Source: Escherichia phage T7
Sequence record: MZ375274.1
Strand: one strand, 5' to 3'
Length of the DNA stretch: 36,786 nucleotides
The first letter of the stretch is position 1, and each line of letters begins with the position of its first letter. The translations under genes and the position numbers were made by a program. Shown here piece after piece: positions 370 through 36,786 of this stretch. The notes below the pieces were generated by a model. That model did no database searches, was not told the DNA's origin, and worked only from the letters and a program-made list of their open reading frames with translations.

Positions 370-392
370 TAATACAACTCACTATAGGGAGA
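370..392 (+). promoter_or_regulatory. T7 RNA polymerase promoter phiOL (A at -11)
   Basis: TAATACAACTCACTATAGGGAGA, 22/23 match to the T7 promoter consensus. Confidence 0.7.
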
Positions 393-2589: not shown

Positions 2590-5241
2590 ATGAACACGAT
2601 TAACATCGCTAAGAACGACTTCTCTGACATCGAACTGGCTGCTATCCCGTTCAACACTCTGGCTGACCATTACGGTGAGCGTTTAGCTCGCGAACAGTTG
2701 GCCCTTGAGCATGAGTCTTACGAGATGGGTGAAGCACGCTTCCGCAAGATGTTTGAGCGTCAACTTAAAGCTGGTGAGGTTGCGGATAACGCTGCCGCCA
2801 AGCCTCTCATCACTACCCTACTCCCTAAGATGATTGCACGCATCAACGACTGGTTTGAGGAAGTGAAAGCTAAGCGCGGCAAGCGCCCGACAGCCTTCCA
2901 GTTCCTGCAAGAAATCAAGCCGGAAGCCGTAGCGTACATCACCATTAAGACCACTCTGGCTTGCCTAACCAGTGCTGACAATACAACCGTTCAGGCTGCA
3001 GCAAGCGCAATCGGTCGGGCCATTGAGGACGAGGCTCGCTTCGGTCGTATCCGTGACCTTGAAGCTAAGCACTTCAAGAAAAACGTTGAGGAACAACTCA
3101 ACAAGCGCGTAGGGCACGTCTACAAGAAAGCATTTATGCGAGTTGTCGAGGCTGACATGCTCTCTAAGGGTCTACTCGGTGGCGAGGCGTGGTCTTCGTG
3201 GCATAAGGAAGACTCTATTCATGTAGGAGTACGCTGCATCGAGATGCTCATTGAGTCAACCGGAATGGTTAGCTTACACCGCCAAAATGCTGGCGTAGTA
3301 GGTCAAGACTCTGAGACTATCGAACTCGCACCTGAATACGCTGAGGCTATCGCAACCCGTGCAGGTGCGCTGGCTGGCATCTCTCCGATGTTCCAACCTT
3401 GCGTAGTTCCTCCTAAGCCGTGGACTGGCATTACTGGTGGTGGCTATTGGGCTAACGGTCGTCGTCCTCTGGCGCTGGTGCGTACTCACAGTAAGAAAGC
3501 ACTGATGCGCTACGAAGACGTTTACATGCCTGAGGTGTACAAAGCGATTAACATTGCGCAAAACACCGCATGGAAAATCAACAAGAAAGTCCTAGCGGTC
3601 GCCAACGTAATCACCAAGTGGAAGCATTGTCCGGTCGAGGACATCCCTGCGATTGAGCGTGAAGAACTCCCGATGAAACCGGAAGACATCGACATGAATC
3701 CTGAGGCTCTCACCGCGTGGAAACGTGCTGCCGCTGCTGTGTACCGCAAGGACAAGGCTCGCAAGTCTCGCCGTATCAGCCTTGAGTTCATGCTTGAGCA
3801 AGCCAATAAGTTTGCTAACCATAAGGCCATCTGGTTCCCTTACAACATGGACTGGCGCGGTCGTGTTTACGCTGTGTCAATGTTCAACCCGCAAGGTAAC
3901 GATATGACCAAAGGACTGCTTACGCTGGCGAAAGGTAAACCAATCGGTAAGGAAGGTTACTACTGGCTGAAAATCCACGGTGCAAACTGTGCGGGTGTCG
4001 ATAAGGTTCCGTTCCCTGAGCGCATCAAGTTCATTGAGGAAAACCACGAGAACATCATGGCTTGCGCTAAGTCTCCACTGGAGAACACTTGGTGGGCTGA
4101 GCAAGATTCTCCGTTCTGCTTCCTTGCGTTCTGCTTTGAGTACGCTGGGGTACAGCACCACGGCCTGAGCTATAACTGCTCCCTTCCGCTGGCGTTTGAC
4201 GGGTCTTGCTCTGGCATCCAGCACTTCTCCGCGATGCTCCGAGATGAGGTAGGTGGTCGCGCGGTTAACTTGCTTCCTAGTGAAACCGTTCAGGACATCT
4301 ACGGGATTGTTGCTAAGAAAGTCAACGAGATTCTACAAGCAGACGCAATCAATGGGACCGATAACGAAGTAGTTACCGTGACCGATGAGAACACTGGTGA
4401 AATCTCTGAGAAAGTCAAGCTGGGCACTAAGGCACTGGCTGGTCAATGGCTGGCTTACGGTGTTACTCGCAGTGTGACTAAGCGTTCAGTCATGACGCTG
4501 GCTTACGGGTCCAAAGAGTTCGGCTTCCGTCAACAAGTGCTGGAAGATACCATTCAGCCAGCTATTGATTCCGGCAAGGGTCTGATGTTCACTCAGCCGA
4601 ATCAGGCTGCTGGATACATGGCTAAGCTGATTTGGGAATCTGTGAGCGTGACGGTGGTAGCTGCGGTTGAAGCAATGAACTGGCTTAAGTCTGCTGCTAA
4701 GCTGCTGGCTGCTGAGGTCAAAGATAAGAAGACTGGAGAGATTCTTCGCAAGCGTTGCGCTGTGCATTGGGTAACTCCTGATGGTTTCCCTGTGTGGCAG
4801 GAATACAAGAAGCCTATTCAGACGCGCTTGAACCTGATGTTCCTCGGTCAGTTCCGCTTACAGCCTACCATTAACACCAACAAAGATAGCGAGATTGATG
4901 CACACAAACAGGAGTCTGGTATCGCTCCTAACTTTGTACACAGCCAAGACGGTAGCCACCTTCGTAAGACTGTAGTGTGGGCACACGAGAAGTACGGAAT
5001 CGAATCTTTTGCACTGATTCACGACTCCTTCGGTACCATTCCGGCTGACGCTGCGAACCTGTTCAAAGCAGTGCGCGAAACTATGGTTGACACATATGAG
5101 TCTTGTGATGTACTGGCTGATTTCTACGACCAGTTCGCTGACCAGTTGCACGAGTCTCAATTGGACAAAATGCCAGCACTTCCGGCTAAAGGTAACTTGA
5201 ACCTCCGTGACATCTTAGAGTCGGACTTCGCGTTCGCGTAA
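2590..5241 (+). CDS. 1: T7 RNA polymerase, single-subunit DNA-dependent RNAP (gene 1)
   Basis: 883-aa ORF, MNTINIAKNDFSDIELAAIPFNTLADHYGERLAREQLALEHESYEMGEARFRKMFERQ..., ends ...DFAFA. Confidence 0.98.
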   Translation: MNTINIAKNDFSDIELAAIPFNTLADHYGERLAREQLALEHESYEMGEARFRKMFERQLKAGEVADNAAAKPLITTLLPKMIARINDWFEEVKAKRGKRPTAFQFLQEIKPEAVAYITIKTTLACLTSADNTTVQAAASAIGRAIEDEARFGRIRDLEAKHFKKNVEEQLNKRVGHVYKKAFMRVVEADMLSKGLLGGEAWSSWHKEDSIHVGVRCIEMLIESTGMVSLHRQNAGVVGQDSETIELAPEYAEAIATRAGALAGISPMFQPCVVPPKPWTGITGGGYWANGRRPLALVRTHSKKALMRYEDVYMPEVYKAINIAQNTAWKINKKVLAVANVITKWKHCPVEDIPAIEREELPMKPEDIDMNPEALTAWKRAAAAVYRKDKARKSRRISLEFMLEQANKFANHKAIWFPYNMDWRGRVYAVSMFNPQGNDMTKGLLTLAKGKPIGKEGYYWLKIHGANCAGVDKVPFPERIKFIEENHENIMACAKSPLENTWWAEQDSPFCFLAFCFEYAGVQHHGLSYNCSLPLAFDGSCSGIQHFSAMLRDEVGGRAVNLLPSETVQDIYGIVAKKVNEILQADAINGTDNEVVTVTDENTGEISEKVKLGTKALAGQWLAYGVTRSVTKRSVMTLAYGSKEFGFRQQVLEDTIQPAIDSGKGLMFTQPNQAAGYMAKLIWESVSVTVVAAVEAMNWLKSAAKLLAAEVKDKKTGEILRKRCAVHWVTPDGFPVWQEYKKPIQTRLNLMFLGQFRLQPTINTNKDSEIDAHKQESGIAPNFVHSQDGSHLRKTVVWAHEKYGIESFALIHDSFGTIPADAANLFKAVRETMVDTYESCDVLADFYDQFADQLHESQLDKMPALPAKGNLNLRDILESDFAFA

Positions 5242-7008: not shown

Positions 7009-7023
7009 TTTATAAGGAGACAC

Positions 7024-7046
7024 TTTTACGACTCACTAAAGGAGGT
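7024..7046 (+). promoter_or_regulatory. T7 promoter phi1.5 with altered -16/-15 (TTTTACGACTCACTAAAGGAGGT)
   Basis: Matches the T7 promoter core from -14 to +6, but -16/-15 are TT not AA; looks like a deletion junction. Confidence 0.6.
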
Positions 7047-7475: not shown

Positions 7476-7817
<342 letters not shown>

Positions 7818-7884: not shown

Positions 7885-8583
7885 ATGGCTAAGAAGATTT
7901 TCACCTCTGCGCTGGGTACCGCTGAACCTTACGCTTACATCGCCAAGCCGGACTACGGCAACGAAGAGCGTGGCTTTGGGAACCCTCGTGGTGTCTATAA
8001 AGTTGACCTGACTATTCCCAACAAAGACCCGCGCTGCCAGCGTATGGTCGATGAAATCGTGAAGTGTCACGAAGAGGCTTATGCTGCTGCCGTTGAGGAA
8101 TACGAAGCTAATCCACCTGCTGTAGCTCGTGGTAAGAAACCGCTGAAACCGTATGAGGGTGACATGCCGTTCTTCGATAACGGTGACGGTACGACTACCT
8201 TTAAGTTCAAATGCTACGCGTCTTTCCAAGACAAGAAGACCAAAGAGACCAAGCACATCAATCTGGTTGTGGTTGACTCAAAAGGTAAGAAGATGGAAGG
8301 CGTTCCGATTATCGGTGGTGGCTCTAAGCTGAAAGTTAAATATTCTCTGGTTCCATACAAGTGGAACACTGCTGTAGGTGCGAGCGTTAAGCTGCAACTG
8401 GAATCCGTGATGCTGGTCGAACTGGCTACCTTTGGTGGCGGTGAAGACGATTGGGCTGACGAAGTTGAAGAGAACGGCTATGTTGCCTCTGGTTCTGCCA
8501 AAGCGAGCAAACCACGCGACGAAGAAAGCTGGGACGAAGACGACGAAGAGTCCGAGGAAGCAGACGAAGACGGAGACTTCTAA
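7885..8583 (+). CDS. 2.5: Single-stranded DNA-binding protein gp2.5
   Basis: 232-aa ORF with an acidic C-terminal tail ending ...EEADEDGDF. Confidence 0.95.
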   Translation: MAKKIFTSALGTAEPYAYIAKPDYGNEERGFGNPRGVYKVDLTIPNKDPRCQRMVDEIVKCHEEAYAAAVEEYEANPPAVARGKKPLKPYEGDMPFFDNGDGTTTFKFKCYASFQDKKTKETKHINLVVVDSKGKKMEGVPIIGGGSKLKVKYSLVPYKWNTAVGASVKLQLESVMLVELATFGGGEDDWADEVEENGYVASGSAKASKPRDEESWDEDDEESEEADEDGDF

Positions 8584-9003
8584 GTGGAACTGCGGGAGAA
8601 AATCCTTGAGCGAATCAAGGTGACTTCCTCTGGGTGTTGGGAGTGGCAGGGCGCTACGAACAATAAAGGGTACGGGCAGGTGTGGTGCAGCAATACCGGA
8701 AAGGTTGTCTACTGTCATCGCGTAATGTCTAATGCTCCGAAAGGTTCTACCGTCCTGCACTCCTGTGATAATCCATTATGTTGTAACCCTGAACACCGTT
8801 CCATAGGAACTCCAAAAGAGAACTCCACTGACATGGTAAATAAGGGTCGCTCACACAAGGGGTATAAACTTTCAGACGAAGACGTAATGGCAATCATGGA
8901 GTCCAGCGAGTCCAATGTATCCTTAGCTCGCACCTATGGTGTCTCCCAACAGACTATTTGTGATATACGCAAAGGGAGGCGACATGGCAGGTTACGGCGC
9001 TAA
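8584..9003 (+). CDS. 2.8: Gene 2.8 HNH-endonuclease-like protein (GTG start)
   Basis: 139-aa ORF with Cys/His-rich block KGYGQVW...CHRV...HSCDNPLCCNPEH; paralog of the gene 7.7 product. Confidence 0.8.
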   Translation: MELREKILERIKVTSSGCWEWQGATNNKGYGQVWCSNTGKVVYCHRVMSNAPKGSTVLHSCDNPLCCNPEHRSIGTPKENSTDMVNKGRSHKGYKLSDEDVMAIMESSESNVSLARTYGVSQQTICDIRKGRRHGRLRR

Positions 9004-9888: not shown

Positions 9889-11694
<1,806 letters not shown>

Positions 11695-11769: not shown

Positions 11770-13884
11770 ATGATCGTTTCTGACATCGAAGCTAACGCCC
11801 TCTTAGAGAGCGTCACTAAGTTCCACTGCGGGGTTATCTACGACTACTCCACCGCTGAGTACGTAAGCTACCGTCCGAGTGACTTCGGTGCGTATCTGGA
11901 TGCGCTGGAAGCCGAGGTTGCACGAGGCGGTCTTATTGTGTTCCACAACGGTCACAAGTATGACGTTCCTGCATTGACCAAACTGGCAAAGTTGCAATTG
12001 AACCGAGAGTTCCACCTTCCTCGTGAGAACTGTATTGACACCCTTGTGTTGTCACGTTTGATTCATTCCAACCTCAAGGACACCGATATGGGTCTTCTGC
12101 GTTCCGGCAAGTTGCCCGGAAAACGCTTTGGGTCTCACGCTTTGGAGGCGTGGGGTTATCGCTTAGGCGAGATGAAGGGTGAATACAAAGACGACTTTAA
12201 GCGTATGCTTGAAGAGCAGGGTGAAGAATACGTTGACGGAATGGAGTGGTGGAACTTCAACGAAGAGATGATGGACTATAACGTTCAGGACGTTGTGGTA
12301 ACTAAAGCTCTCCTTGAGAAGCTACTCTCTGACAAACATTACTTCCCTCCTGAGATTGACTTTACGGACGTAGGATACACTACGTTCTGGTCAGAATCCC
12401 TTGAGGCCGTTGACATTGAACATCGTGCTGCATGGCTGCTCGCTAAACAAGAGCGCAACGGGTTCCCGTTTGACACAAAAGCAATCGAAGAGTTGTACGT
12501 AGAGTTAGCTGCTCGCCGCTCTGAGTTGCTCCGTAAATTGACCGAAACGTTCGGCTCGTGGTATCAGCCTAAAGGTGGCACTGAGATGTTCTGCCATCCG
12601 CGAACAGGTAAGCCACTACCTAAATACCCTCGCATTAAGACACCTAAAGTTTGTGGTATCTTTAAGAAGCCTAAGAACAAGGCACAGCGAGAAGGCCGTG
12701 AGCCTTGCGAACTTGATACCCGCGAGTACGTTGCTGGTGCTCCTTACACCCCAGTTGAACATGTTGTGTTTAACCCTTCGTCTCGTGACCACATTCAGAA
12801 GAAACTCCAAGAGGCTGGGTGGGTCCCGACCAAGTACACCGATAAGGGTGCTCCTGTGGTGGACGATGAGGTACTCGAAGGAGTACGTGTAGATGACCCT
12901 GAGAAGCAAGCCGCTATCGACCTCATTAAAGAGTACTTGATGATTCAGAAGCGAATCGGACAGTCTGCTGAGGGAGACACAGCATGGCTTCGTTATGTTG
13001 CTGAGGATGGTAAGATTCATGGTTCTGTTAACCCTAATGGAGCAGTTACGGGTCGTGCGACCCATGCGTTCCCAAACCTTGCGCAAATTCCGGGTGTACG
13101 TTCTCCTTATGGAGAGCAGTGTCGCGCTGCTTTTGGCGCTGAGCACCATTTGGATGGGATAACTGGTAAGCCTTGGGTTCAGGCTGGCATCGACGCATCC
13201 GGTCTTGAGCTACGCTGCTTGGCTCACTTCATGGCTCGCTTTGATAACGGCGAGTACGCTCACGAGATTCTTAACGGCGACATCCACACTAAGAACCAGA
13301 TAGCTGCTGAACTACCTACCCGAGATAACGCTAAGACGTTCATCTATGGGTTCCTCTATGGTGCTGGTGATGAGAAGATTGGACAGATTGTTGGTGCTGG
13401 TAAAGAGCGCGGTAAGGAACTCAAGAAGAAATTCCTTGAGAACACCCCCGCGATTGCAGCACTCCGCGAGTCTATCCAACAGACACTTGTCGAGTCCTCT
13501 CAATGGGTAGCTGGTGAGCAACAAGTCAAGTGGAAACGCCGCTGGATTAAAGGTCTGGATGGTCGTAAGGTACACGTTCGTAGTCCTCACGCTGCCTTGA
13601 ATACCCTACTGCAATCTGCTGGTGCTCTCATCTGCAAACTGTGGATTATCAAGACCGAAGAGATGCTCGTAGAGAAAGGCTTGAAGCATGGCTGGGATGG
13701 GGACTTTGCGTACATGGCATGGGTACATGATGAAATCCAAGTAGGCTGCCGTACCGAAGAGATTGCTCAGGTGGTCATTGAGACCGCACAAGAAGCGATG
13801 CGCTGGGTTGGAGACCACTGGAACTTCCGGTGTCTTCTGGATACCGAAGGTAAGATGGGTCCTAATTGGGCGATTTGCCACTGA
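11770..13884 (+). CDS. 5: T7 DNA polymerase (gene 5)
   Basis: 704-aa [34 protein letters not shown]... with the 3'-5' exonuclease motif at its N-terminus; ends ...NWAICH. Confidence 0.97.
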
Positions 13885-13929
13885 TACAGGAGGCTACTCC
13901 AAAGGCATAAAACTATAGGAGAAATTATT

Positions 13930-14229
13930 ATGGCTATGACAAAGAAATTTAAAGTGTCCTTCGACGTTACCGCAAAGATGTCGTCTGACGTTCAGGCAAT
14001 CTTAGAGAAAGATATGCTGCATCTATGTAAGCAGGTCGGCTCAGGTGCGATTGTCCCCAATGGTAAACAGAAGGAAATGATTGTCCAGTTCCTGACACAC
14101 GGTATGGAAGGATTGATGACATTCGTAGTACGTACATCATTTCGTGAGGCCATTAAGGACATGCACGAAGAGTATGCAGATAAGGACTCTTTCAAACAAT
14201 CTCCTGCAACAGTACGGGAGGTGTTCTGA
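13930..14229 (+). CDS. 5.5: Gp5.5 (H-NS-binding protein)
   Basis: 99-aa ORF MAMTKKFKVSFDVTAKMSSDVQAILEKDM... Confidence 0.88.
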   Translation: MAMTKKFKVSFDVTAKMSSDVQAILEKDMLHLCKQVGSGAIVPNGKQKEMIVQFLTHGMEGLMTFVVRTSFREAIKDMHEEYADKDSFKQSPATVREVF

Positions 14230-14438
14230 TGTCTGACTACCTGAAAGTGCTGCAAGCAATCAAAAGTTGCCCTAAGACTTTCCAGTCCAACTATGTACGG
14301 AACAATGCGAGCCTCGTAGCGGAGGCCGCTTCCCGTGGTCACATCTCGTGCCTGACTACTAGTGGACGTAACGGTGGCGCTTGGGAAATCACTGCTTCCG
14401 GTACTCGCTTTCTGAAACGAATGGGAGGATGTGTCTAA
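14229..14438 (+). CDS. 5.7: Gp5.7
   Basis: 69-aa ORF MSDYLKVLQAIKSCPKTFQSNYVRNNASLVAEAASRGH..., ATG overlaps the 5.5 stop. Confidence 0.85.
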   Translation: MSDYLKVLQAIKSCPKTFQSNYVRNNASLVAEAASRGHISCLTTSGRNGGAWEITASGTRFLKRMGGCV

Positions 14439-15606: not shown

Positions 15607-15629
15607 TAATACGACTCACTATAGGGAGA
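15607..15629 (+). promoter_or_regulatory. T7 class III promoter phi6.5
   Basis: TAATACGACTCACTATAGGGAGA, exact consensus. Confidence 0.9.
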
Positions 15630-16209: not shown

Positions 16210-16610
16210 TGTCTGAGTTCACATGTGTGGAGGCTAAGAGTCGCTTCCGTGCAATCCGGTGGACTGTGGAACACCTTGGGTTGCCTAAAGGATTCGAAGG
16301 ACACTTTGTGGGCTACAGCCTCTACGTAGACGAAGTGATGGACATGTCTGGTTGCCGTGAAGAGTACATTCTGGACTCTACCGGAAAACATGTAGCGTAC
16401 TTCGCGTGGTGCGTAAGCTGTGACATTCACCACAAAGGAGACATTCTGGATGTAACGTCCGTTGTCATTAATCCTGAGGCAGACTCTAAGGGCTTACAGC
16501 GATTCCTAGCGAAACGCTTTAAGTACCTTGCGGAACTCCACGATTGCGATTGGGTGTCTCGTTGTAAGCATGAAGGCGAGACAATGCGTGTATACTTTAA
16601 GGAGGTATAA
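16209..16610 (+). CDS. 7: Gp7
   Basis: 133-aa ORF MSEFTCVEAKSRFRAIRWTVEHLGLPKGFEG... Confidence 0.85.
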   Translation: MSEFTCVEAKSRFRAIRWTVEHLGLPKGFEGHFVGYSLYVDEVMDMSGCREEYILDSTGKHVAYFAWCVSCDIHHKGDILDVTSVVINPEADSKGLQRFLAKRFKYLAELHDCDWVSRCKHEGETMRVYFKEV

Positions 16611-16613
16611 GTT

Positions 16614-16913
16614 ATGGGTAAGAAAGTTAAGAAGGCCGTGAAGAAAGTCCCCAAGTCCGTTAAGAAAGTCGTTAAGGAAGGGGCTAGTCCGGTTAAACAG
16701 GTTGCTGGCGGTCTAGCTGGTCTGGCTGGTGGTACTGGTGAAGCACAGATGGTGGAAGTACCACAAGCTGCCGCACAGATTGTTGACGTACCTGAGAAAG
16801 AGGTTTCCACTGAGGACGAAGCACAGACAGAAAGCGGACGCAAGAAAGCTCGTGCTGGCGGTAAGAAATCCTTGAGTGTAGCCCGTAGCTCCGGTGGCGG
16901 TATCAACATTTAA
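16614..16913 (+). CDS. 7.3: Gp7.3 virion/tail-associated protein
   Basis: 99-aa Lys/Ala/Gly-rich ORF MGKKVKKAVKKVPKSVKKVVKEG... Confidence 0.85.
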   Translation: MGKKVKKAVKKVPKSVKKVVKEGASPVKQVAGGLAGLAGGTGEAQMVEVPQAAAQIVDVPEKEVSTEDEAQTESGRKKARAGGKKSLSVARSSGGGINI

Positions 16914-17319: not shown

Positions 17320-18929
17320 TGGCTGAGAAACGAACAGGACTTGCGGAGGATGGCGCAAAGTCTGTCTATGAGCGTTTAAAGAACGACCGTGCTCCCTATG
17401 AGACACGCGCTCAGAATTGCGCTCAATATACCATCCCATCATTGTTCCCTAAGGACTCCGATAACGCCTCTACAGATTATCAAACTCCGTGGCAAGCCGT
17501 GGGCGCTCGTGGTCTGAACAATCTAGCCTCTAAGCTCATGCTGGCTCTATTCCCTATGCAGACTTGGATGCGACTTACTATATCTGAATATGAAGCAAAG
17601 CAGTTACTGAGCGACCCCGATGGACTCGCTAAGGTCGATGAGGGCCTCTCGATGGTAGAGCGTATCATCATGAACTACATTGAGTCTAACAGTTACCGCG
17701 TGACTCTCTTTGAGGCTCTCAAACAGTTAGTCGTAGCTGGTAACGTCCTGCTGTACCTACCGGAACCGGAAGGGTCAAACTATAATCCCATGAAGCTGTA
17801 CCGATTGTCTTCTTATGTGGTCCAACGAGACGCATTCGGCAACGTTCTGCAAATGGTGACTCGTGACCAGATAGCTTTTGGTGCTCTCCCTGAGGACATC
17901 CGTAAGGCTGTAGAAGGTCAAGGTGGTGAGAAGAAAGCTGATGAGACAATCGACGTGTACACTCACATCTATCTGGATGAGGACTCAGGTGAATACCTCC
18001 GATACGAAGAGGTCGAGGGTATGGAAGTCCAAGGCTCCGATGGGACTTATCCTAAAGAGGCTTGCCCATACATCCCGATTCGGATGGTCAGACTAGATGG
18101 TGAATCCTACGGTCGTTCGTACATTGAGGAATACTTAGGTGACTTACGGTCCCTTGAAAATCTCCAAGAGGCTATCGTCAAGATGTCCATGATTAGCTCT
18201 AAGGTTATCGGCTTAGTGAATCCTGCTGGTATCACCCAGCCACGCCGACTGACCAAAGCTCAGACTGGTGACTTCGTTACTGGTCGTCCAGAAGACATCT
18301 CGTTCCTCCAACTGGAGAAGCAAGCAGACTTTACTGTAGCTAAAGCCGTAAGTGACGCTATCGAGGCTCGCCTTTCGTTTGCCTTTATGTTGAACTCTGC
18401 GGTTCAGCGTACAGGTGAACGTGTGACCGCCGAAGAGATTCGGTATGTAGCTTCTGAACTTGAAGATACTTTAGGTGGTGTCTACTCTATCCTTTCTCAA
18501 GAATTACAATTGCCTCTGGTACGAGTGCTCTTGAAGCAACTACAAGCCACGCAACAGATTCCTGAGTTACCTAAGGAAGCCGTAGAGCCAACCATTAGTA
18601 CAGGTCTGGAAGCAATTGGTCGAGGACAAGACCTTGATAAGCTGGAGCGGTGTGTCACTGCGTGGGCTGCACTGGCACCTATGCGGGACGACCCTGATAT
18701 TAACCTTGCGATGATTAAGTTACGTATTGCCAACGCTATCGGTATTGACACTTCTGGTATTCTACTCACCGAAGAACAGAAGCAACAGAAGATGGCCCAA
18801 CAGTCTATGCAAATGGGTATGGATAATGGTGCTGCTGCGCTGGCTCAAGGTATGGCTGCACAAGCTACAGCTTCACCTGAGGCTATGGCTGCTGCCGCTG
18901 ATTCCGTAGGTTTACAGCCGGGAATTTAA
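17319..18929 (+). CDS. 8: Head-to-tail connector (portal) protein gp8
   Basis: 536-aa ORF MAEKRTGLAEDGAKSVYERLKNDRAPYETRAQN... Confidence 0.95.
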   Translation: MAEKRTGLAEDGAKSVYERLKNDRAPYETRAQNCAQYTIPSLFPKDSDNASTDYQTPWQAVGARGLNNLASKLMLALFPMQTWMRLTISEYEAKQLLSDPDGLAKVDEGLSMVERIIMNYIESNSYRVTLFEALKQLVVAGNVLLYLPEPEGSNYNPMKLYRLSSYVVQRDAFGNVLQMVTRDQIAFGALPEDIRKAVEGQGGEKKADETIDVYTHIYLDEDSGEYLRYEEVEGMEVQGSDGTYPKEACPYIPIRMVRLDGESYGRSYIEEYLGDLRSLENLQEAIVKMSMISSKVIGLVNPAGITQPRRLTKAQTGDFVTGRPEDISFLQLEKQADFTVAKAVSDAIEARLSFAFMLNSAVQRTGERVTAEEIRYVASELEDTLGGVYSILSQELQLPLVRVLLKQLQATQQIPELPKEAVEPTISTGLEAIGRGQDLDKLERCVTAWAALAPMRDDPDINLAMIKLRIANAIGIDTSGILLTEEQKQQKMAQQSMQMGMDNGAAALAQGMAAQATASPEAMAAAADSVGLQPGI

Positions 18930-18949
18930 TACGACTCACTATAGGGAGA
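18927..18949 (+). promoter_or_regulatory. T7 class III promoter phi9
   Basis: TAATACGACTCACTATAGGGAGA, exact consensus. Confidence 0.9.
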
Positions 18950-19028: not shown

Positions 19029-19952
19029 ATGGCTGAATCTAATGCAGACGTATATGCATCTTTTGGCGTGAACTCCGCTGTGATGTCTGGTGGTTCCGTT
19101 GAGGAACATGAGCAGAACATGCTGGCTCTTGATGTTGCTGCCCGTGATGGCGATGATGCAATCGAGTTAGCGTCAGACGAAGTGGAAACAGAACGTGACC
19201 TGTATGACAACTCTGACCCGTTCGGTCAAGAGGATGACGAAGGCCGCATTCAGGTTCGTATCGGTGATGGCTCTGAGCCGACCGATGTGGACACTGGAGA
19301 AGAAGGCGTTGAGGGCACCGAAGGTTCCGAAGAGTTTACCCCACTGGGCGAGACTCCAGAAGAACTGGTAGCTGCCTCTGAGCAACTTGGTGAGCACGAA
19401 GAGGGCTTCCAAGAGATGATTAACATTGCTGCTGAGCGTGGCATGAGTGTCGAGACCATTGAGGCTATCCAGCGTGAGTACGAGGAGAACGAAGAGTTGT
19501 CCGCCGAGTCCTACGCTAAGCTGGCTGAAATTGGCTACACGAAGGCTTTCATTGACTCGTATATCCGTGGTCAAGAAGCTCTGGTGGAGCAGTACGTAAA
19601 CAGTGTCATTGAGTACGCTGGTGGTCGTGAACGTTTTGATGCACTGTATAACCACCTTGAGACGCACAACCCTGAGGCTGCACAGTCGCTGGATAATGCG
19701 TTGACCAATCGTGACTTAGCGACCGTTAAGGCTATCATCAACTTGGCTGGTGAGTCTCGCGCTAAGGCGTTCGGTCGTAAGCCAACTCGTAGTGTGACTA
19801 ATCGTGCTATTCCGGCTAAACCTCAGGCTACCAAGCGTGAAGGCTTTGCGGACCGTAGCGAGATGATTAAAGCTATGAGTGACCCTCGGTATCGCACAGA
19901 TGCCAACTATCGTCGTCAAGTCGAACAGAAAGTAATCGATTCGAACTTCTGA
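19029..19952 (+). CDS. 9: Capsid assembly (scaffolding) protein gp9
   Basis: 307-aa highly acidic ORF MAESNADVYASFGVNSAVMSGGSVEEHEQNM... Confidence 0.95.
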   Translation: MAESNADVYASFGVNSAVMSGGSVEEHEQNMLALDVAARDGDDAIELASDEVETERDLYDNSDPFGQEDDEGRIQVRIGDGSEPTDVDTGEEGVEGTEGSEEFTPLGETPEELVAASEQLGEHEEGFQEMINIAAERGMSVETIEAIQREYEENEELSAESYAKLAEIGYTKAFIDSYIRGQEALVEQYVNSVIEYAGGRERFDALYNHLETHNPEAAQSLDNALTNRDLATVKAIINLAGESRAKAFGRKPTRSVTNRAIPAKPQATKREGFADRSEMIKAMSDPRYRTDANYRRQVEQKVIDSNF

Positions 19953-19965
19953 TAGACTTCGAAAT

Positions 19966-19988
19966 TAATACGACTCACTATATGGAGA
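19966..19988 (+). promoter_or_regulatory. T7 class III promoter phi10 with T instead of G at +1
   Basis: TAATACGACTCACTATATGGAGA; the other class III promoters here read ...TATAGGGAGA; followed by the gene 10 leader. Confidence 0.85.
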
Positions 19989-20045
19989 CCACAACGGTTT
20001 CCCTCTAGAAATAATTTTGTTTAACTTTAAGAAGGAGATATACAT

Positions 20046-21083
20046 ATGGCTAGCATGACTGGTGGACAGCAAATGGGTACTAACCAAGGTAAAGGTGTAG
20101 TTGCTGCTGGAGATAAACTGGCGTTGTTCTTGAAGGTATTTGGCGGTGAAGTCCTGACTGCGTTCGCTCGTACCTCCGTGACCACTTCTCGCCACATGGT
20201 ACGTTCCATCTCCAGCGGTAAATCCGCTCAGTTCCCTGTTCTGGGTCGCACTCAGGCAGCGTATCTGGCTCCGGGCGAGAACCTCGACGATAAACGTAAG
20301 GACATCAAACACACCGAGAAGGTAATCACCATTGACGGTCTCCTGACGGCTGACGTTCTGATTTATGATATTGAGGACGCGATGAACCACTACGACGTTC
20401 GCTCTGAGTATACCTCTCAGTTGGGTGAATCTCTGGCGATGGCTGCGGATGGTGCGGTTCTGGCTGAGATTGCCGGTCTGTGTAACGTGGAAAGCAAATA
20501 TAATGAGAACATCGAGGGCTTAGGTACTGCTACCGTAATTGAGACCACTCAGAACAAGGCCGCACTTACCGACCAAGTTGCGCTGGGTAAGGAGATTATT
20601 GCGGCTCTGACTAAGGCTCGTGCGGCTCTGACCAAGAACTATGTTCCGGCTGCTGACCGTGTGTTCTACTGTGACCCAGATAGCTACTCTGCGATTCTGG
20701 CAGCACTGATGCCGAACGCAGCAAACTACGCTGCTCTGATTGACCCTGAGAAGGGTTCTATCCGCAACGTTATGGGCTTTGAGGTTGTAGAAGTTCCGCA
20801 CCTCACCGCTGGTGGTGCTGGTACCGCTCGTGAGGGCACTACTGGTCAGAAGCACGTCTTCCCTGCCAATAAAGGTGAGGGTAATGTCAAGGTTGCTAAG
20901 GACAACGTTATCGGCCTGTTCATGCACCGCTCTGCGGTAGGTACTGTTAAGCTGCGTGACTTGGCTCTGGAGCGCGCTCGCCGTGCTACCTTCCAAGCGG
21001 ACCAGATTATCGCTAAGTACGCAATGGGCCACGGTGGTCTTCGCCCAGAAGCTGCTGGTGCAGTGGTTTTCAAAGTGGAGTAA
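20046..21083 (+). CDS. 10A: Major capsid protein 10A
   Basis: 345-aa ORF MASMTGGQQMGTNQGKGVVAAGDKLALFLKVFGGEV... after the strong RBS AAGGAG. Confidence 0.97.
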   Translation: MASMTGGQQMGTNQGKGVVAAGDKLALFLKVFGGEVLTAFARTSVTTSRHMVRSISSGKSAQFPVLGRTQAAYLAPGENLDDKRKDIKHTEKVITIDGLLTADVLIYDIEDAMNHYDVRSEYTSQLGESLAMAADGAVLAEIAGLCNVESKYNENIEGLGTATVIETTQNKAALTDQVALGKEIIAALTKARAALTKNYVPAADRVFYCDPDSYSAILAALMPNAANYAALIDPEKGSIRNVMGFEVVEVPHLTAGGAGTAREGTTGQKHVFPANKGEGNVKVAKDNVIGLFMHRSAVGTVKLRDLALERARRATFQADQIIAKYAMGHGGLRPEAAGAVVFKVE

Positions 21084-21241: not shown

Positions 21242-21250
21242 CTAGCATAA

Positions 21251-21289
21251 CCCCTTGGGGCCTCTAAACGGGTCTTGAGGGGTTTTTTG
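21251..21289 (+). terminator. T7 RNA polymerase terminator Tphi
   Basis: ccccttggggcctctaaacgggtcttgaggggttttttg stem-loop plus U-run. Confidence 0.92.
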
Positions 21290-21306
21290 CTGAAAGGAGG
21301 AACTAT

Positions 21307-21920: not shown

Positions 21921-24305
21921 ATGGCACTCATTAGCCAATCAATCAAGAACTTGAAGGGTGGTATCAGCCAACAGCCTGACATCCTTCGTTATCCAGACCA
22001 AGGGTCACGCCAAGTTAACGGTTGGTCTTCGGAGACCGAGGGCCTCCAAAAGCGTCCACCTCTTGTTTTCTTAAATACACTTGGAGACAACGGTGCGTTA
22101 GGTCAAGCTCCGTACATCCACCTGATTAACCGAGATGAGCACGAACAGTATTACGCTGTGTTCACTGGTAGCGGAATCCGAGTGTTCGACCTTTCTGGTA
22201 ACGAGAAGCAAGTTAGGTATCCTAACGGTTCCAACTACATCAAGACCGCTAATCCACGTAACGACCTGCGAATGGTTACTGTAGCAGACTATACGTTCAT
22301 CGTTAACCGTAACGTTGTTGCACAGAAGAACACAAAGTCTGTCAACTTACCGAATTACAACCCTAATCAAGACGGATTGATTAACGTTCGTGGTGGTCAG
22401 TATGGTAGGGAACTAATTGTACACATTAACGGTAAAGACGTTGCGAAGTATAAGATACCAGATGGTAGTCAACCTGAACACGTAAACAATACGGATGCCC
22501 AATGGTTAGCTGAAGAGTTAGCCAAGCAGATGCGCACTAACTTGTCTGATTGGACTGTAAATGTAGGGCAAGGGTTCATCCATGTGACCGCACCTAGTGG
22601 TCAACAGATTGACTCCTTCACGACTAAAGATGGCTACGCAGACCAGTTGATTAACCCTGTGACCCACTACGCTCAGTCGTTCTCTAAGCTGCCACCTAAT
22701 GCTCCTAACGGCTACATGGTGAAAATCGTAGGGGACGCCTCTAAGTCTGCCGACCAGTATTACGTTCGGTATGACGCTGAGCGGAAAGTTTGGACTGAGA
22801 CTTTAGGTTGGAACACTGAGGACCAAGTTCTATGGGAAACCATGCCACACGCTCTTGTGCGAGCCGCTGACGGTAATTTCGACTTCAAGTGGCTTGAGTG
22901 GTCTCCTAAGTCTTGTGGTGACGTTGACACCAACCCTTGGCCTTCTTTTGTTGGTTCAAGTATTAACGATGTGTTCTTCTTCCGTAACCGCTTAGGATTC
23001 CTTAGTGGGGAGAACATCATATTGAGTCGTACAGCCAAATACTTCAACTTCTACCCTGCGTCCATTGCGAACCTTAGTGATGACGACCCTATAGACGCAG
23101 CTGTGAGTACCAACCGAATAGCAATCCTTAAGTACGCCGTTCCGTTCTCAGAAGAGTTACTCATCTGGTCCGATGAAGCACAATTCGTCCTGACTGCCTC
23201 GGGTACTCTCACATCTAAGTCGGTTGAGTTGAACCTAACGACCCAGTTTGACGTACAGGACCGAGCGAGACCTTTTGGGATTGGGCGTAATGTCTACTTT
23301 GCTAGTCCGAGGTCCAGCTTCACGTCCATCCACAGGTACTACGCTGTGCAGGATGTCAGTTCCGTTAAGAATGCTGAGGACATTACATCACACGTTCCTA
23401 ACTACATCCCTAATGGTGTGTTCAGTATTTGCGGAAGTGGTACGGAAAACTTCTGTTCGGTACTATCTCACGGGGACCCTAGTAAAATCTTCATGTACAA
23501 ATTCCTGTACCTGAACGAAGAGTTAAGGCAACAGTCGTGGTCTCATTGGGACTTTGGGGAAAACGTACAGGTTCTAGCTTGTCAGAGTATCAGCTCAGAT
23601 ATGTATGTGATTCTTCGCAATGAGTTCAATACGTTCCTAGCTAGAATCTCTTTCACTAAGAACGCCATTGACTTACAGGGAGAACCCTATCGTGCCTTTA
23701 TGGACATGAAGATTCGATACACGATTCCTAGTGGAACATACAACGATGACACATTCACTACCTCTATTCATATTCCAACAATTTATGGTGCAAACTTCGG
23801 GAGGGGCAAAATCACTGTATTGGAGCCTGATGGTAAGATAACCGTGTTTGAGCAACCTACGGCTGGGTGGAATAGCGACCCTTGGCTGAGACTCAGCGGT
23901 AACTTGGAGGGACGCATGGTGTACATTGGGTTCAACATTAACTTCGTATATGAGTTCTCTAAGTTCCTCATCAAGCAGACTGCCGACGACGGGTCTACCT
24001 CCACGGAAGACATTGGGCGCTTACAGTTACGCCGAGCGTGGGTTAACTACGAGAACTCTGGTACGTTTGACATTTATGTTGAGAACCAATCGTCTAACTG
24101 GAAGTACACAATGGCTGGTGCCCGATTAGGCTCTAACACTCTGAGGGCTGGGAGACTGAACTTAGGGACCGGACAATATCGATTCCCTGTGGTTGGTAAC
24201 GCCAAGTTCAACACTGTATACATCTTGTCAGATGAGACTACCCCTCTGAACATCATTGGGTGTGGCTGGGAAGGTAACTACTTACGGAGAAGTTCCGGTA
24301 TTTAA
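21921..24305 (+). CDS. 12: Tail tubular protein B (gp12)
   Basis: 794-aa ORF MALISQSIKNLKGGISQQPDILRYPDQGS... Confidence 0.95.
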   Translation: MALISQSIKNLKGGISQQPDILRYPDQGSRQVNGWSSETEGLQKRPPLVFLNTLGDNGALGQAPYIHLINRDEHEQYYAVFTGSGIRVFDLSGNEKQVRYPNGSNYIKTANPRNDLRMVTVADYTFIVNRNVVAQKNTKSVNLPNYNPNQDGLINVRGGQYGRELIVHINGKDVAKYKIPDGSQPEHVNNTDAQWLAEELAKQMRTNLSDWTVNVGQGFIHVTAPSGQQIDSFTTKDGYADQLINPVTHYAQSFSKLPPNAPNGYMVKIVGDASKSADQYYVRYDAERKVWTETLGWNTEDQVLWETMPHALVRAADGNFDFKWLEWSPKSCGDVDTNPWPSFVGSSINDVFFFRNRLGFLSGENIILSRTAKYFNFYPASIANLSDDDPIDAAVSTNRIAILKYAVPFSEELLIWSDEAQFVLTASGTLTSKSVELNLTTQFDVQDRARPFGIGRNVYFASPRSSFTSIHRYYAVQDVSSVKNAEDITSHVPNYIPNGVFSICGSGTENFCSVLSHGDPSKIFMYKFLYLNEELRQQSWSHWDFGENVQVLACQSISSDMYVILRNEFNTFLARISFTKNAIDLQGEPYRAFMDMKIRYTIPSGTYNDDTFTTSIHIPTIYGANFGRGKITVLEPDGKITVFEQPTAGWNSDPWLRLSGNLEGRMVYIGFNINFVYEFSKFLIKQTADDGSTSTEDIGRLQLRRAWVNYENSGTFDIYVENQSSNWKYTMAGARLGSNTLRAGRLNLGTGQYRFPVVGNAKFNTVYILSDETTPLNIIGCGWEGNYLRRSSGI

Positions 24306-24335: not shown

Positions 24336-24358
24336 TAATACAACTCACTATAGGGAGA
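24336..24358 (+). promoter_or_regulatory. T7 class III promoter phi13 with A instead of G at -11
   Basis: TAATACAACTCACTATAGGGAGA; differs from phi6.5/phi9/phi17/phiOR in this window at one position. Confidence 0.8.
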
Positions 24359-36644: not shown

Positions 36645-36786
36645 TCTCACAGTGTACGGACCTAAAGTTCCCCCATAGGGTGTACCTAAAGCCCAGCCAA
36701 TCACCTAAAGTCAACCTTCGGTTGACCTTGAGGGTTCCCTAAGGGTTTGTCTTTGGGTGTTACCTTGAGTGTCTCTCTGTGTCCCT
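36645..36786. repeat. Right terminal direct repeat
   Basis: Exact copy of bases 1-142; window ends at its last base. Confidence 0.9.

What the first reader, a model, noticed from the sequence alone, without database searches (positions are those of the whole stretch)
19966..19988. phi10 promoter for the major capsid gene carries T at +1
The promoter reads TAATACGACTCACTATATGGAGA, whereas phi6.5, phi9, phi17 and phiOR in this window, and canonical phi10, read ...TATAGGGAGA. T7 RNAP strongly prefers initiating with G at +1/+2, so this should lower or shift initiation at the promoter driving the most abundantly expressed late gene. Gene 10 can still be transcribed by read-through from phi6.5 and phi9, since no terminator precedes Tphi.
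Basis: partly seen in the sequence, partly recalled or inferred. Interest (0 to 1): 0.65.

Follow-up and report, generated by a model that had tools for sequence, protein, structure and literature searches.

The report
Lab-evolved T7 capsid promoter start-site mutation
The window is a laboratory genome-reduced phage T7 whose capsid-gene promoter really has T instead of G at the transcription start, a mutation that became common during a published passaging experiment and is tolerated because upstream promoters also transcribe the capsid gene.

Summary
Window 19966-19988 is T7 promoter phi10 with one change, G->T at +1 (window 19983 = T7 22904). phi6.5, phi9, phi17 and phiOR keep the consensus.

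The window is a complete genome from the CiPGr genome-reduction experiment (Yuan et al. 2022). It is most likely clone T7_210S.

The allele is absent from all 23 clones up to transfer 110. It is present in 34 of 38 time-series clones from transfers 120-300. The only other carrier found is a natural T7-like phage, EFA-2.

Published in vitro data disagree on strength: about 8% of wild type in one study, undiminished with a start shifted to +2 in another. A complete phi10 knockout costs T7 little fitness, so read-through explains viability.

The four later clones without the allele carry other changes nearby: phi9 -6 A>G, or T>C just before the gene 10 ATG. T7 promoters are enriched for mutations across the lineage, and the RNA polymerase gene also changed. 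Selection on late transcription is therefore plausible, but drift or hitchhiking is not excluded.

This is a known promoter and a known promoter variant, so interest is low to moderate.

The parts
19966..19988 (+). T7 class III promoter phi10 (-17 to +6), 22/23 match to consensus
   Evidence: aligns to T7 22887-22909
19983..19983 (+). The mutation: +1 G>T (T7 22904)
   Evidence: Shared by 34 CiPGr sister genomes and by phage EFA-2
19984..19985 (+). GG at +2/+3, the likely alternative start (pppGG...)
   Evidence: The sequence shows it directly. A shift to +2 for +1 C/T is proposed in PMC7948468, citing Imburgio 2000. Inferred, not measured
19983..20045 (+). Gene 10 leader with the 5' hairpin and the s10 Shine-Dalgarno (AAGGAG at 20032-20037). 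Predicted 5' hairpin goes from 8 to 7 bp
   Evidence: MFE -19.3 to -15.6 kcal/mol
19982..20008 (+). ATG created by the G>T change. It opens an 8-codon ORF ending at TAG, with no Shine-Dalgarno upstream; probably irrelevant
   Evidence: Read directly from the sequence
20046..21083 (+). Gene 10A (major capsid protein), intact, with N315T
21249..21294 (+). Terminator Tphi, the only strong terminator-like hairpin downstream of phi6.5
18927..18949 (+). phi9, exact consensus; upstream source of read-through transcripts into gene 10
   Evidence: PMC6068830
15607..15629 (+). phi6.5, exact consensus; further upstream source of read-through
19029..19952 (+). Gene 9 (scaffolding protein), intact
24336..24358 (+). 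phi13 with -11 G>A at 24342, a second altered class III promoter in this genome
370..392 (+). phiOL with +1 A>G at 387, a change towards the class III consensus
2590..5241 (+). Gene 1 (T7 RNA polymerase) with V137A (2999) and Q184R (3140)

Best explanation
This is a spontaneous G>T change at the initiating nucleotide of the T7 late promoter phi10. It arose between transfers 110 and 120 of the CiPGr cassette-gene passaging of T7 on E. coli MG1655 carrying Cas9, lambda-Red and an sgRNA library. It then stayed at about 90% of sampled clones up to transfer 300.

Mechanism. T7 RNAP binds normally, because positions -17 to -1 are intact. It cannot start with GTP at +1. It most likely starts at the G at +2 (pppGGAGA...), with output lower by an amount that differs between assays. 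The 5' hairpin of the phi10 transcript is shortened by one G-C pair. The phage stays viable because gene 10 is also transcribed from phi9 and phi6.5, and no terminator precedes Tphi.

The allele was probably favoured, as one of several alternative changes that retune phi9/phi10-driven capsid expression in this lineage.

Shown: the base, its origin in this lineage, its distribution across clones, the co-occurring alleles, and the intact flanking genes and signals. Inferred: the start shift, the size of the effect in vivo, and selection.

My confidence in the mechanistic part is about 0.85. My confidence that the allele was itself selected is about 0.5. The overall figure of 0.6 reflects both.
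For: Identity and origin.
- The window aligns to T7 over its full length, with deletions of genes 0.4-0.6, 1.4, 1.7, 3.8, 4.3-4.7, 5.3 and 19.5.
- The nearest record is MZ375278, clone T7_230S. MZ375274 (T7_210S) is the only accession of the series absent from the collection.
- The experiment is described in PMC9825161.

Distribution of the allele.
- The 41-mer spanning +1T hits 34 MZ3752xx genomes plus EFA-2.
- The G version hits 133 records. The A and C versions hit none.
- None of the 23 clones up to transfer 110 carries it. Counting the window, 34 of 38 time-series clones from transfers 120-300 carry it.

Effect of the change.
- In the Komura S2 File, +1T gave 13.8 against wild-type values of 142-188. 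A second +1T pair gave 11.8 against 192.
- GTP and GG preference of T7 RNAP.
- Start shift to +2 for +1 C/T.
- The predicted 5' hairpin loses one base pair.

Tolerance.
- A phi10 knockout gave a non-significant fitness loss. The double phi9/phi10 knockout lowered 10A RNA by 84-86%.
- Only Tphi scores as a strong terminator.

Hints of selection.
- The four later non-carriers have phi9 -6 A>G (MZ375259, 261, 265) or T>C at -1 of the gene 10 ATG (MZ375265, 276).
- T7_250L adds phi10 -11 G>A, and T7_300L.2 adds phi9 -11 G>A.
- Of 162 distinct SNP positions in 18 genomes, 9 lie in T7 promoters, against 1.6 expected (binomial p = 3.6e-5). Four lie in phi9/phi10 (p = 4e-5).
- The allele sits on several different deletion backgrounds, so recombination has moved it between genomes.
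- EFA-2 is about 91% identical to T7 and carries the same change. Its closest relative in this region, KKE5P, has G.
Against: - One careful in vitro scan found no loss for +1 C/T, -11 G>A, or a purine at -6. The changes may therefore be nearly neutral rather than down-mutations.
- The promoter enrichment shrinks if most coding sites are constrained. If only about 30% of other sites were free to vary, about 5 promoter hits would be expected against 9 observed.
- Clones share ancestry, so the result 'every later clone has a hit' rests on few events.
- The experiment included re-expansion of populations that fell below 1e5 PFU/ml. Such bottlenecks allow drift.
- The three isolates that won a competition on plasmid-free host (T7_5t1 to T7_5t3) lack +1T.
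- No expression or fitness data exist for this allele.
- The authors do not discuss it.
Confidence: 0.6

Rival explanations
1. Neutral or slightly harmful passenger. The change has little fitness effect because read-through supplies gene 10 mRNA. It rose by hitchhiking or by a population bottleneck between transfers 110 and 120.
For: - A phi10 knockout is nearly neutral in T7.
- +1 C/T kept high output in one assay.
- The protocol included re-expansion of populations that had crashed.
- The allele appears abruptly, from 0/2 clones at transfer 110 to 2/2 at transfer 120.
- The winners on plasmid-free host lack it.
Against: - It persists at about 90% for 180 transfers while recombining onto different backgrounds.
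- Every later non-carrier has another change in the phi9 to gene 10 control region.
- Promoter hits are enriched.
- The same change is present in the unrelated phage EFA-2.
Confidence: 0.3
2. Cas9 escape. The G>T change destroys the AGG PAM of the protospacer AAATTAATACGACTCACTAT. That would reduce cutting by a library sgRNA acting on-target or off-target at T7 promoters.
For: - 22904 is the first G of that PAM.
- The phi13 -11 G>A in the window lies in the seed of the identical protospacer.
- The paper says about 23.5% of the T7 point mutations lie in spacer or PAM regions.
- phi4.7 lies inside an ORF that the authors annotated. It shares the 11 PAM-proximal bases plus the AGG.
Against: - Essential genes were excluded from the design, and spacers were chosen within genes. 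The promoter is intergenic.
- The identical protospacer and PAM remain intact at phi6.5 and phiOR.
- The overlapping protospacer ending at -1 keeps a valid TGG PAM.
- phiOL evolved towards the consensus, which would create a new target.
- EFA-2 has the same change without any known Cas9 exposure.
Confidence: 0.07
3. Co-evolution with an altered polymerase. The RNAP substitutions in this lineage (Q184R, V137A; later R96C, E245G) relax start-nucleotide or promoter requirements. The mutant phi10 would then work about as well as wild type with this enzyme.
For: - Q184R precedes the promoter change, and V137A is present in the window.
- Later clones change R96, which sits in the stretch AKRGKRPTA known from established T7 RNAP structural knowledge as the AT-rich recognition loop. 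They also change S241/E245, next to the intercalating hairpin at residues 232-243.
Against: - None of these residues is among those reported to bind the initiating GTP (R425, R632, H784).
- No biochemical data exist for these substitutions.
Confidence: 0.05
4. Sequencing or assembly error in this record.
For: None beyond the fact that it is a single base.
Against: The same base is present in 34 separately assembled sister genomes. It is absent from 27 others of the same series.
Confidence: 0.01

Closest known systems
Wild-type T7 phi10 (class III) promoter, T7 22887-22909
   Same: Same locus, the same 22 of 23 bases, the same leader, ribosome-binding site and gene 10.
   Different: +1 is T instead of G. 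The start is probably displaced to +2, and the 5' hairpin is one pair shorter.
Synthetic +1 G>T T7 promoter variants tested in vitro (Komura 2018, PMC5937735; Kartje 2020, PMC7948468; Imburgio 2000 as cited by them)
   Same: Identical -17 to +2 sequence, TAATACGACTCACTATATG.
   Different: Those are short in vitro templates with other downstream sequence, and their results conflict (about 8% of wild type versus undiminished). Here the variant sits in a replicating phage genome and reached high frequency.
Engineered phi10 knockout T7 (Paff et al. 2018, PMC6068830)
   Same: Loss or reduction of phi10 function, with gene 10 still expressed from upstream promoters and a small fitness cost.
   Different: The knockout replaces the whole promoter with scrambled sequence. 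Here a single base changed spontaneously, and some activity probably remains.
phi10 of the T7-like phage 'Enterococcus phage EFA-2' (MT350293)
   Same: Exactly the same promoter with +1T and the same leader. All its other class III promoters are consensus.
   Different: It is a natural isolate about 91% identical to T7 and not genome-reduced. Its T rests on a single record.
T7 class II promoter phi2.5 (A-initiating)
   Same: A T7 promoter that does not start with G.
   Different: phi2.5 has T at -1 and A at +1, and it initiates with ATP. The mutant phi10 has no purine at +1.

Membership tests
T7 class III late promoter (phi10) | 23-bp conserved sequence TAATACGACTCACTATAGGGAGA (-17 to +6) | tested here: met
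   22 of 23 bases match at 19966-19988. Zero matches at up to 3 mismatches in 100 shuffles.
T7 class III late promoter (phi10) | Position between gene 9 and gene 10, followed by the s10 leader | tested here: met
   Collinear with T7 22887-22966. Genes 9 and 10A are intact on either side.
T7 class III late promoter (phi10) | Specificity-loop contact bases -11 to -7 and the -4 to -1 TATA unchanged | tested here: met
   GACTC at -11 to -7 and TATA at -4 to -1 are unchanged in the window. Contact positions are as described in PMC5937735.
T7 class III late promoter (phi10) | G at +1 (GTP-initiated transcript GGGAGA) | tested here: not met
   T at 19983.
T7 class III late promoter (phi10) | Initiation by T7 RNAP at this site in infected cells | not testable with these tools
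   Needs 5'-RACE or RNA-seq.
CiPGr genome-reduced T7 lineage (Yuan et al. 2022) | Shared designed deletions and lineage-specific SNPs with MZ375233-294 | tested here: met
   The same deletion junctions and many shared SNPs (405G, 3721G, 19571C, 19607A, 34067G, 34172T and others).
CiPGr genome-reduced T7 lineage (Yuan et al. 2022) | Identity with one deposited clone | tested here: inconclusive
   The best record held is T7_230S, at 99.9%. MZ375274 (T7_210S by the numbering pattern) is not in the collection.
Cas9 escape mutation | Change lies in an NGG PAM or in the seed of a protospacer | tested here: met
   AGG becomes ATG for the protospacer at T7 22883-22902. Most positions in a genome meet this criterion, so it is a weak test.
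Cas9 escape mutation | A spacer in the library matches that protospacer | not testable with these tools
   The supplementary tables are not held. The design excluded essential genes.
Cas9 escape mutation | Other identical targets are also altered | tested here: not met
   The phi6.5 and phiOR copies of the same 20-mer plus PAM are intact in the window.

The most novel reading that the evidence does not exclude
The phi10 +1T allele is the leading member of a selection-driven retuning of the whole T7 late-transcription circuit in genome-reduced phage. The components are:
- alternative hits in phi9, phi10 and the gene 10 leader;
- -11 G>A in phi9, phi10, phi13 and phiOR;
- phiOL converted towards the consensus;
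- substitutions in promoter-contacting parts of the RNA polymerase.

If so, wild-type phi10 output is more than optimal under these conditions. The EFA-2 case would suggest that the same holds in at least one wild relative.
Probability: 0.4. Interest if true: 0.5.

Novelty: already known. Interest (0 to 1): 0.3.

Why it matters
phi10 is the promoter used in most T7-based expression systems, and it drives the most abundant T7 protein. A phage that keeps a non-G start at phi10 for about 180 transfers shows how much slack read-through gives this operon. If the parallel changes in phi9, phi10, the gene 10 leader and the polymerase were selected, the series would be a ready-made data set on how a minimal transcription circuit rebalances after genome reduction. 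That would bear on the design of reduced or refactored phages. By itself the single base is an ordinary laboratory mutation in a known element.

Tried and rejected
- **Supplementary tables.** I looked for the spacer and mutation tables of the CiPGr paper. None are held as text.
- **Primary papers.** Imburgio 2000 and Helm 1999 are not held. The start-shift statement is therefore second-hand.
- **Literature on the allele.** A full-text search for '22904' with 'phage T7' gave only irrelevant papers. No paper describing EFA-2 itself was found.
- **Other natural carriers.** The exact 23-mer with +1T has 0 matches in IMG/VR, JGI metagenomes and GTDB genomes. The consensus 23-mer has 98 matches in IMG/VR, and 8 of 8 phi10-type leaders there have G.
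- **A or C at +1.** No record has either.
- **New sigma-70 promoter.** The G>T change creates no sigma-70-like site at 19966-19990.
- **The new ATG** (19982-19984) opens only an 8-codon ORF without a Shine-Dalgarno. I judged it irrelevant.
- **Gene conversion between promoter copies.** This could explain -11 G>A in class III promoters and A>G at -11 and +1 of phiOL. It cannot explain +1T or phi9 -6G, because no T7 promoter carries those bases.
- **Engineered feature.** I considered a display-vector style weakened promoter. The time series shows a spontaneous origin instead.
- **Plaque size.** It is not associated with the allele. Carriers occur among both L and S clones.

Full report
**1. The observation**

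Window 19966-19988 reads TAATACGACTCACTATATGGAGA. A scan for the class III consensus with up to 3 mismatches finds ten sites, against none in 100 shuffles. Exact consensus is present at 15607, 18927, 31628 and 36291.

Alignment to the T7 reference puts the mismatch at T7 22904, which the reference annotates as the phi10 start. The leader, the AAGGAG ribosome-binding site and the gene 10 ATG at 20046 follow as in T7. Genes 9 and 10A translate without interruption, and 10A carries N315T.

**2. What the window is**

The 36,786 bases align end to end with T7, apart from deletions of T7 1353-1903, 7608-7763, 8197-8725, 11254-11542, 13278-14272, 16483-16820 and 39378-39608, and about 45 point differences.

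The closest public records are the 'Mutant Escherichia phage T7 clone T7_nnnL/S' genomes MZ375233-294. They come from the CRISPR/Cas9-based iterative genome-reduction experiment (CiPGr) of Yuan et al. 2022 (PMC9825161). In that work T7 was passaged about 300 times on MG1655 carrying Cas9, lambda-Red and a library of sgRNA/repair cassettes against non-essential genes. One large-plaque and one small-plaque clone were sequenced every 10 transfers.

The accession numbers run in order of transfer. The nearest record held is T7_230S. The only accession of the series missing from the collection is MZ375274, which by the numbering would be T7_210S. That is the probable identity of the window.

The paper notes many unexpected point mutations but does not mention promoters. 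Its supplements are not held.

**3. Distribution of the allele**

I used a 41-mer centred on the T, which megablast can match only if the T is present. It hits 34 genomes of the series and one outsider.

- No clone up to transfer 110 carries the allele (22 time-series clones plus T7_100L.2).
- Among the 38 time-series clones of transfers 120-300, 34 carry it, counting the window. T7_300L.2 carries it as well.
- The exceptions are T7_140L, 150L, 170L and 220S.
- The G version of the 41-mer is in 133 records. The A and C versions are in none.
- The exact 23-mer with T is absent from IMG/VR, JGI metagenomes and GTDB genomes. The consensus 23-mer occurs 98 times in IMG/VR.

The outsider is 'Enterococcus phage EFA-2' (MT350293). 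It is a full-length T7-like genome about 91% identical to T7. Its phi10 has the same T, and its other class III promoters are consensus. Its nearest relative in this region, KKE5P, has G. The same change has therefore arisen at least twice, although EFA-2 rests on a single record.

**4. What the change should do**

[quoted passage not shown] Transcripts become 5'-heterogeneous when +1 G is replaced (PMC3683919). The published in vitro measurements disagree on strength.

| Source | Variant | Result |
|---|---|---|
| Komura et al. (PMC5937735 S2 File) | wild type, five barcodes | 142-188 (mean 169) |
| Komura et al. | +1 G>T, TAATACGACTCACTATATG | 13.8 (about 8%) |
| Komura et al. | second +1T/+1G pair | 11.8 vs 192 |
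| Komura et al. | +1 G>A | 68 |
| Komura et al. | -6 A>G | 46-49 |
| Kartje et al. (PMC7948468) | +1 C or T | high output, attributed to a start shifted to +2, citing Imburgio et al. |
| Kartje et al. | -11 G>A | no effect |
| Kartje et al. | -6 | a purine is sufficient |

Here +2 and +3 are GG, so a pppGG start at +2 is the obvious fallback. The predicted 5' hairpin of the phi10 transcript drops from 8 to 7 pairs, with MFE going from -19.3 to -15.6 kcal/mol. The size of the effect in vivo is unknown.

**5. Why the phage tolerates it**

Between phi6.5 and gene 11 the only strong terminator-like hairpin is Tphi, at 21249-21284. Paff et al. replaced phi10 with scrambled sequence. The fitness loss was not significant (P = 0.0749). 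The phi9 knockout lowered gene 10A RNA about as much as the phi10 knockout did. The double knockout lowered it by 84-86% (PMC6068830).

**6. Passenger or selected?**

I placed 18 genomes of the lineage on T7 coordinates.

- Each of the four later clones that lack +1T carries another change in the same control region. These are phi9 -6 A>G (140L, 150L, 170L, and also T7_100L.2, 5t1, 5t2) or T>C at the base before the gene 10 ATG (170L, 220S, and also 230S, 250L, 5t2, 5t3).
- phi9 -6G and phi10 +1T never occur together.
- T7_250L adds phi10 -11 G>A. T7_300L.2 adds phi9 -11 G>A.
- The window and 220S have phi13 -11 G>A, and 5t1 has phiOR -11 G>A.
- phiOL gained +1 A>G in all but two (5t2, 5t3) of the clones compared from transfer 100 on, and -11 A>G in two clones. 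Both changes are towards the consensus.

Of 162 distinct SNP positions, 9 fall in the 391 bp of the 17 T7 promoters, against 1.6 expected (p = 3.6e-5). Four fall in phi9/phi10 (p = 4e-5). The +1T allele sits on several different deletion backgrounds, so recombination moved it between genomes.

The polymerase gene also changed: Q184R early, V137A by transfer 210, and later R96C, E245G, S241A and P862S. R96 lies in the stretch AKRGKRPTA, which I take from established knowledge of the T7 RNAP structure to be the AT-rich recognition loop. S241 and E245 are at or next to the intercalating hairpin, residues 232-243.

Together this suggests selection on late transcription. The case is not closed, for five reasons.

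- The clones share ancestry.
- Coding constraint inflates the apparent enrichment.
- The protocol re-expanded populations that had crashed.
- One assay finds these changes harmless.
- The three isolates that won a competition on plasmid-free host lack +1T.

**7. The Cas9 rival**

The G is the first G of the AGG PAM of AAATTAATACGACTCACTAT. This 20-mer plus PAM is present four times in T7, at phi6.5, phi10, phi13 and phiOR. In the window the phi10 copy has lost the PAM, and the phi13 copy has a seed change.

Four points argue against escape:

- The design excluded essential genes and took spacers within genes.
- Two of the four copies are untouched, and the overlapping protospacer keeps a TGG PAM.
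- phiOL moved towards this sequence.
- EFA-2 shows the same change.

I give this rival a low probability. The spacer list in the paper's supplement would settle it.

**8. Comparison and verdict**

The element is phi10 by sequence and position, and it fails only the '+1 G' criterion. The variant promoter has been assayed in vitro, and a full phi10 knockout has been studied in T7. The kind of thing is therefore known.

What has not been reported, as far as these tools show, is that this allele dominated a long passaging experiment together with alternative hits in phi9, the gene 10 leader, other promoters and the polymerase, and that a wild relative carries the same base. Interest is low to moderate.

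Noticed in passing
window 24336-24358 (SNP at 24342): phi13 carries -11 G>A. In sister clones the same -11 G>A appears in phi9 (T7_300L.2), phi10 (T7_250L) and phiOR (T7_5t1). phiOL, which naturally has A at -11, gains G in T7_170L and 5t1. The reciprocal pattern could reflect selection or short-patch gene conversion between promoter copies.
   Followed up: partly
window 370-392 (SNP at 387): phiOL +1 A>G, a change towards the class III consensus. It is present in all but two (T7_5t2, T7_5t3) of the compared clones from transfer 100 onward.
   Followed up: partly
window 2590-5241 (2999 and 3140): The T7 RNA polymerase carries V137A and Q184R. Later sister clones add R96C (AT-rich recognition loop), S241A/E245G (at or next to the intercalating hairpin) and P862S.
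   Followed up: partly
window 37 and 36681; junction near 99 and near 36743: Both terminal-repeat copies carry the same G>T (T7 37 / 39814) and the same 18-bp deletion (T7 99-116), so the change is concerted at the two genome ends. The record stops about 57 bases short of the T7 right end.
   Followed up: no
window 7020-7046: The designed deletion of gene 1.4 (T7 7608-7763) also replaces the AT-rich bases -17 to -13 of promoter phi1.5 (now CTTTT instead of TAATA). The deletion of T7 13278-14272 removes phi4.3 and phi4.7 entirely. The genome therefore has 14 recognisable T7 promoters instead of 17.
   Followed up: partly
window 20989: Major capsid protein substitution N315T. It is shared with T7_220S and T7_230S.
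   Followed up: no
window 8798-8799: Adjacent double substitution TA>GT in gene 2.8 (T7 10071-10072). It is present in all but one (T7_5t3) of the clones compared from transfer 120 onward. It may be a Cas9 spacer/PAM escape in a non-essential gene.
   Followed up: no
L004 (MT350293), whole record: 'Enterococcus phage EFA-2' is a T7-like Studiervirinae genome about 91% identical to T7, with a full set of T7-type promoters. The stated Enterococcus host looks doubtful.
   Followed up: partly
L023 (T7_230S) 20045; L031 (T7_250L); L022; L006: T>C at the base immediately before the gene 10 ATG (T7 22966). It recurs in six genomes of the lineage, with or without phi10 +1T. Its effect on translation initiation is unknown.
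   Followed up: partly
window 19982-20008: The G>T change creates an ATG that opens an 8-codon ORF in read-through transcripts. There is no Shine-Dalgarno upstream.
   Followed up: no
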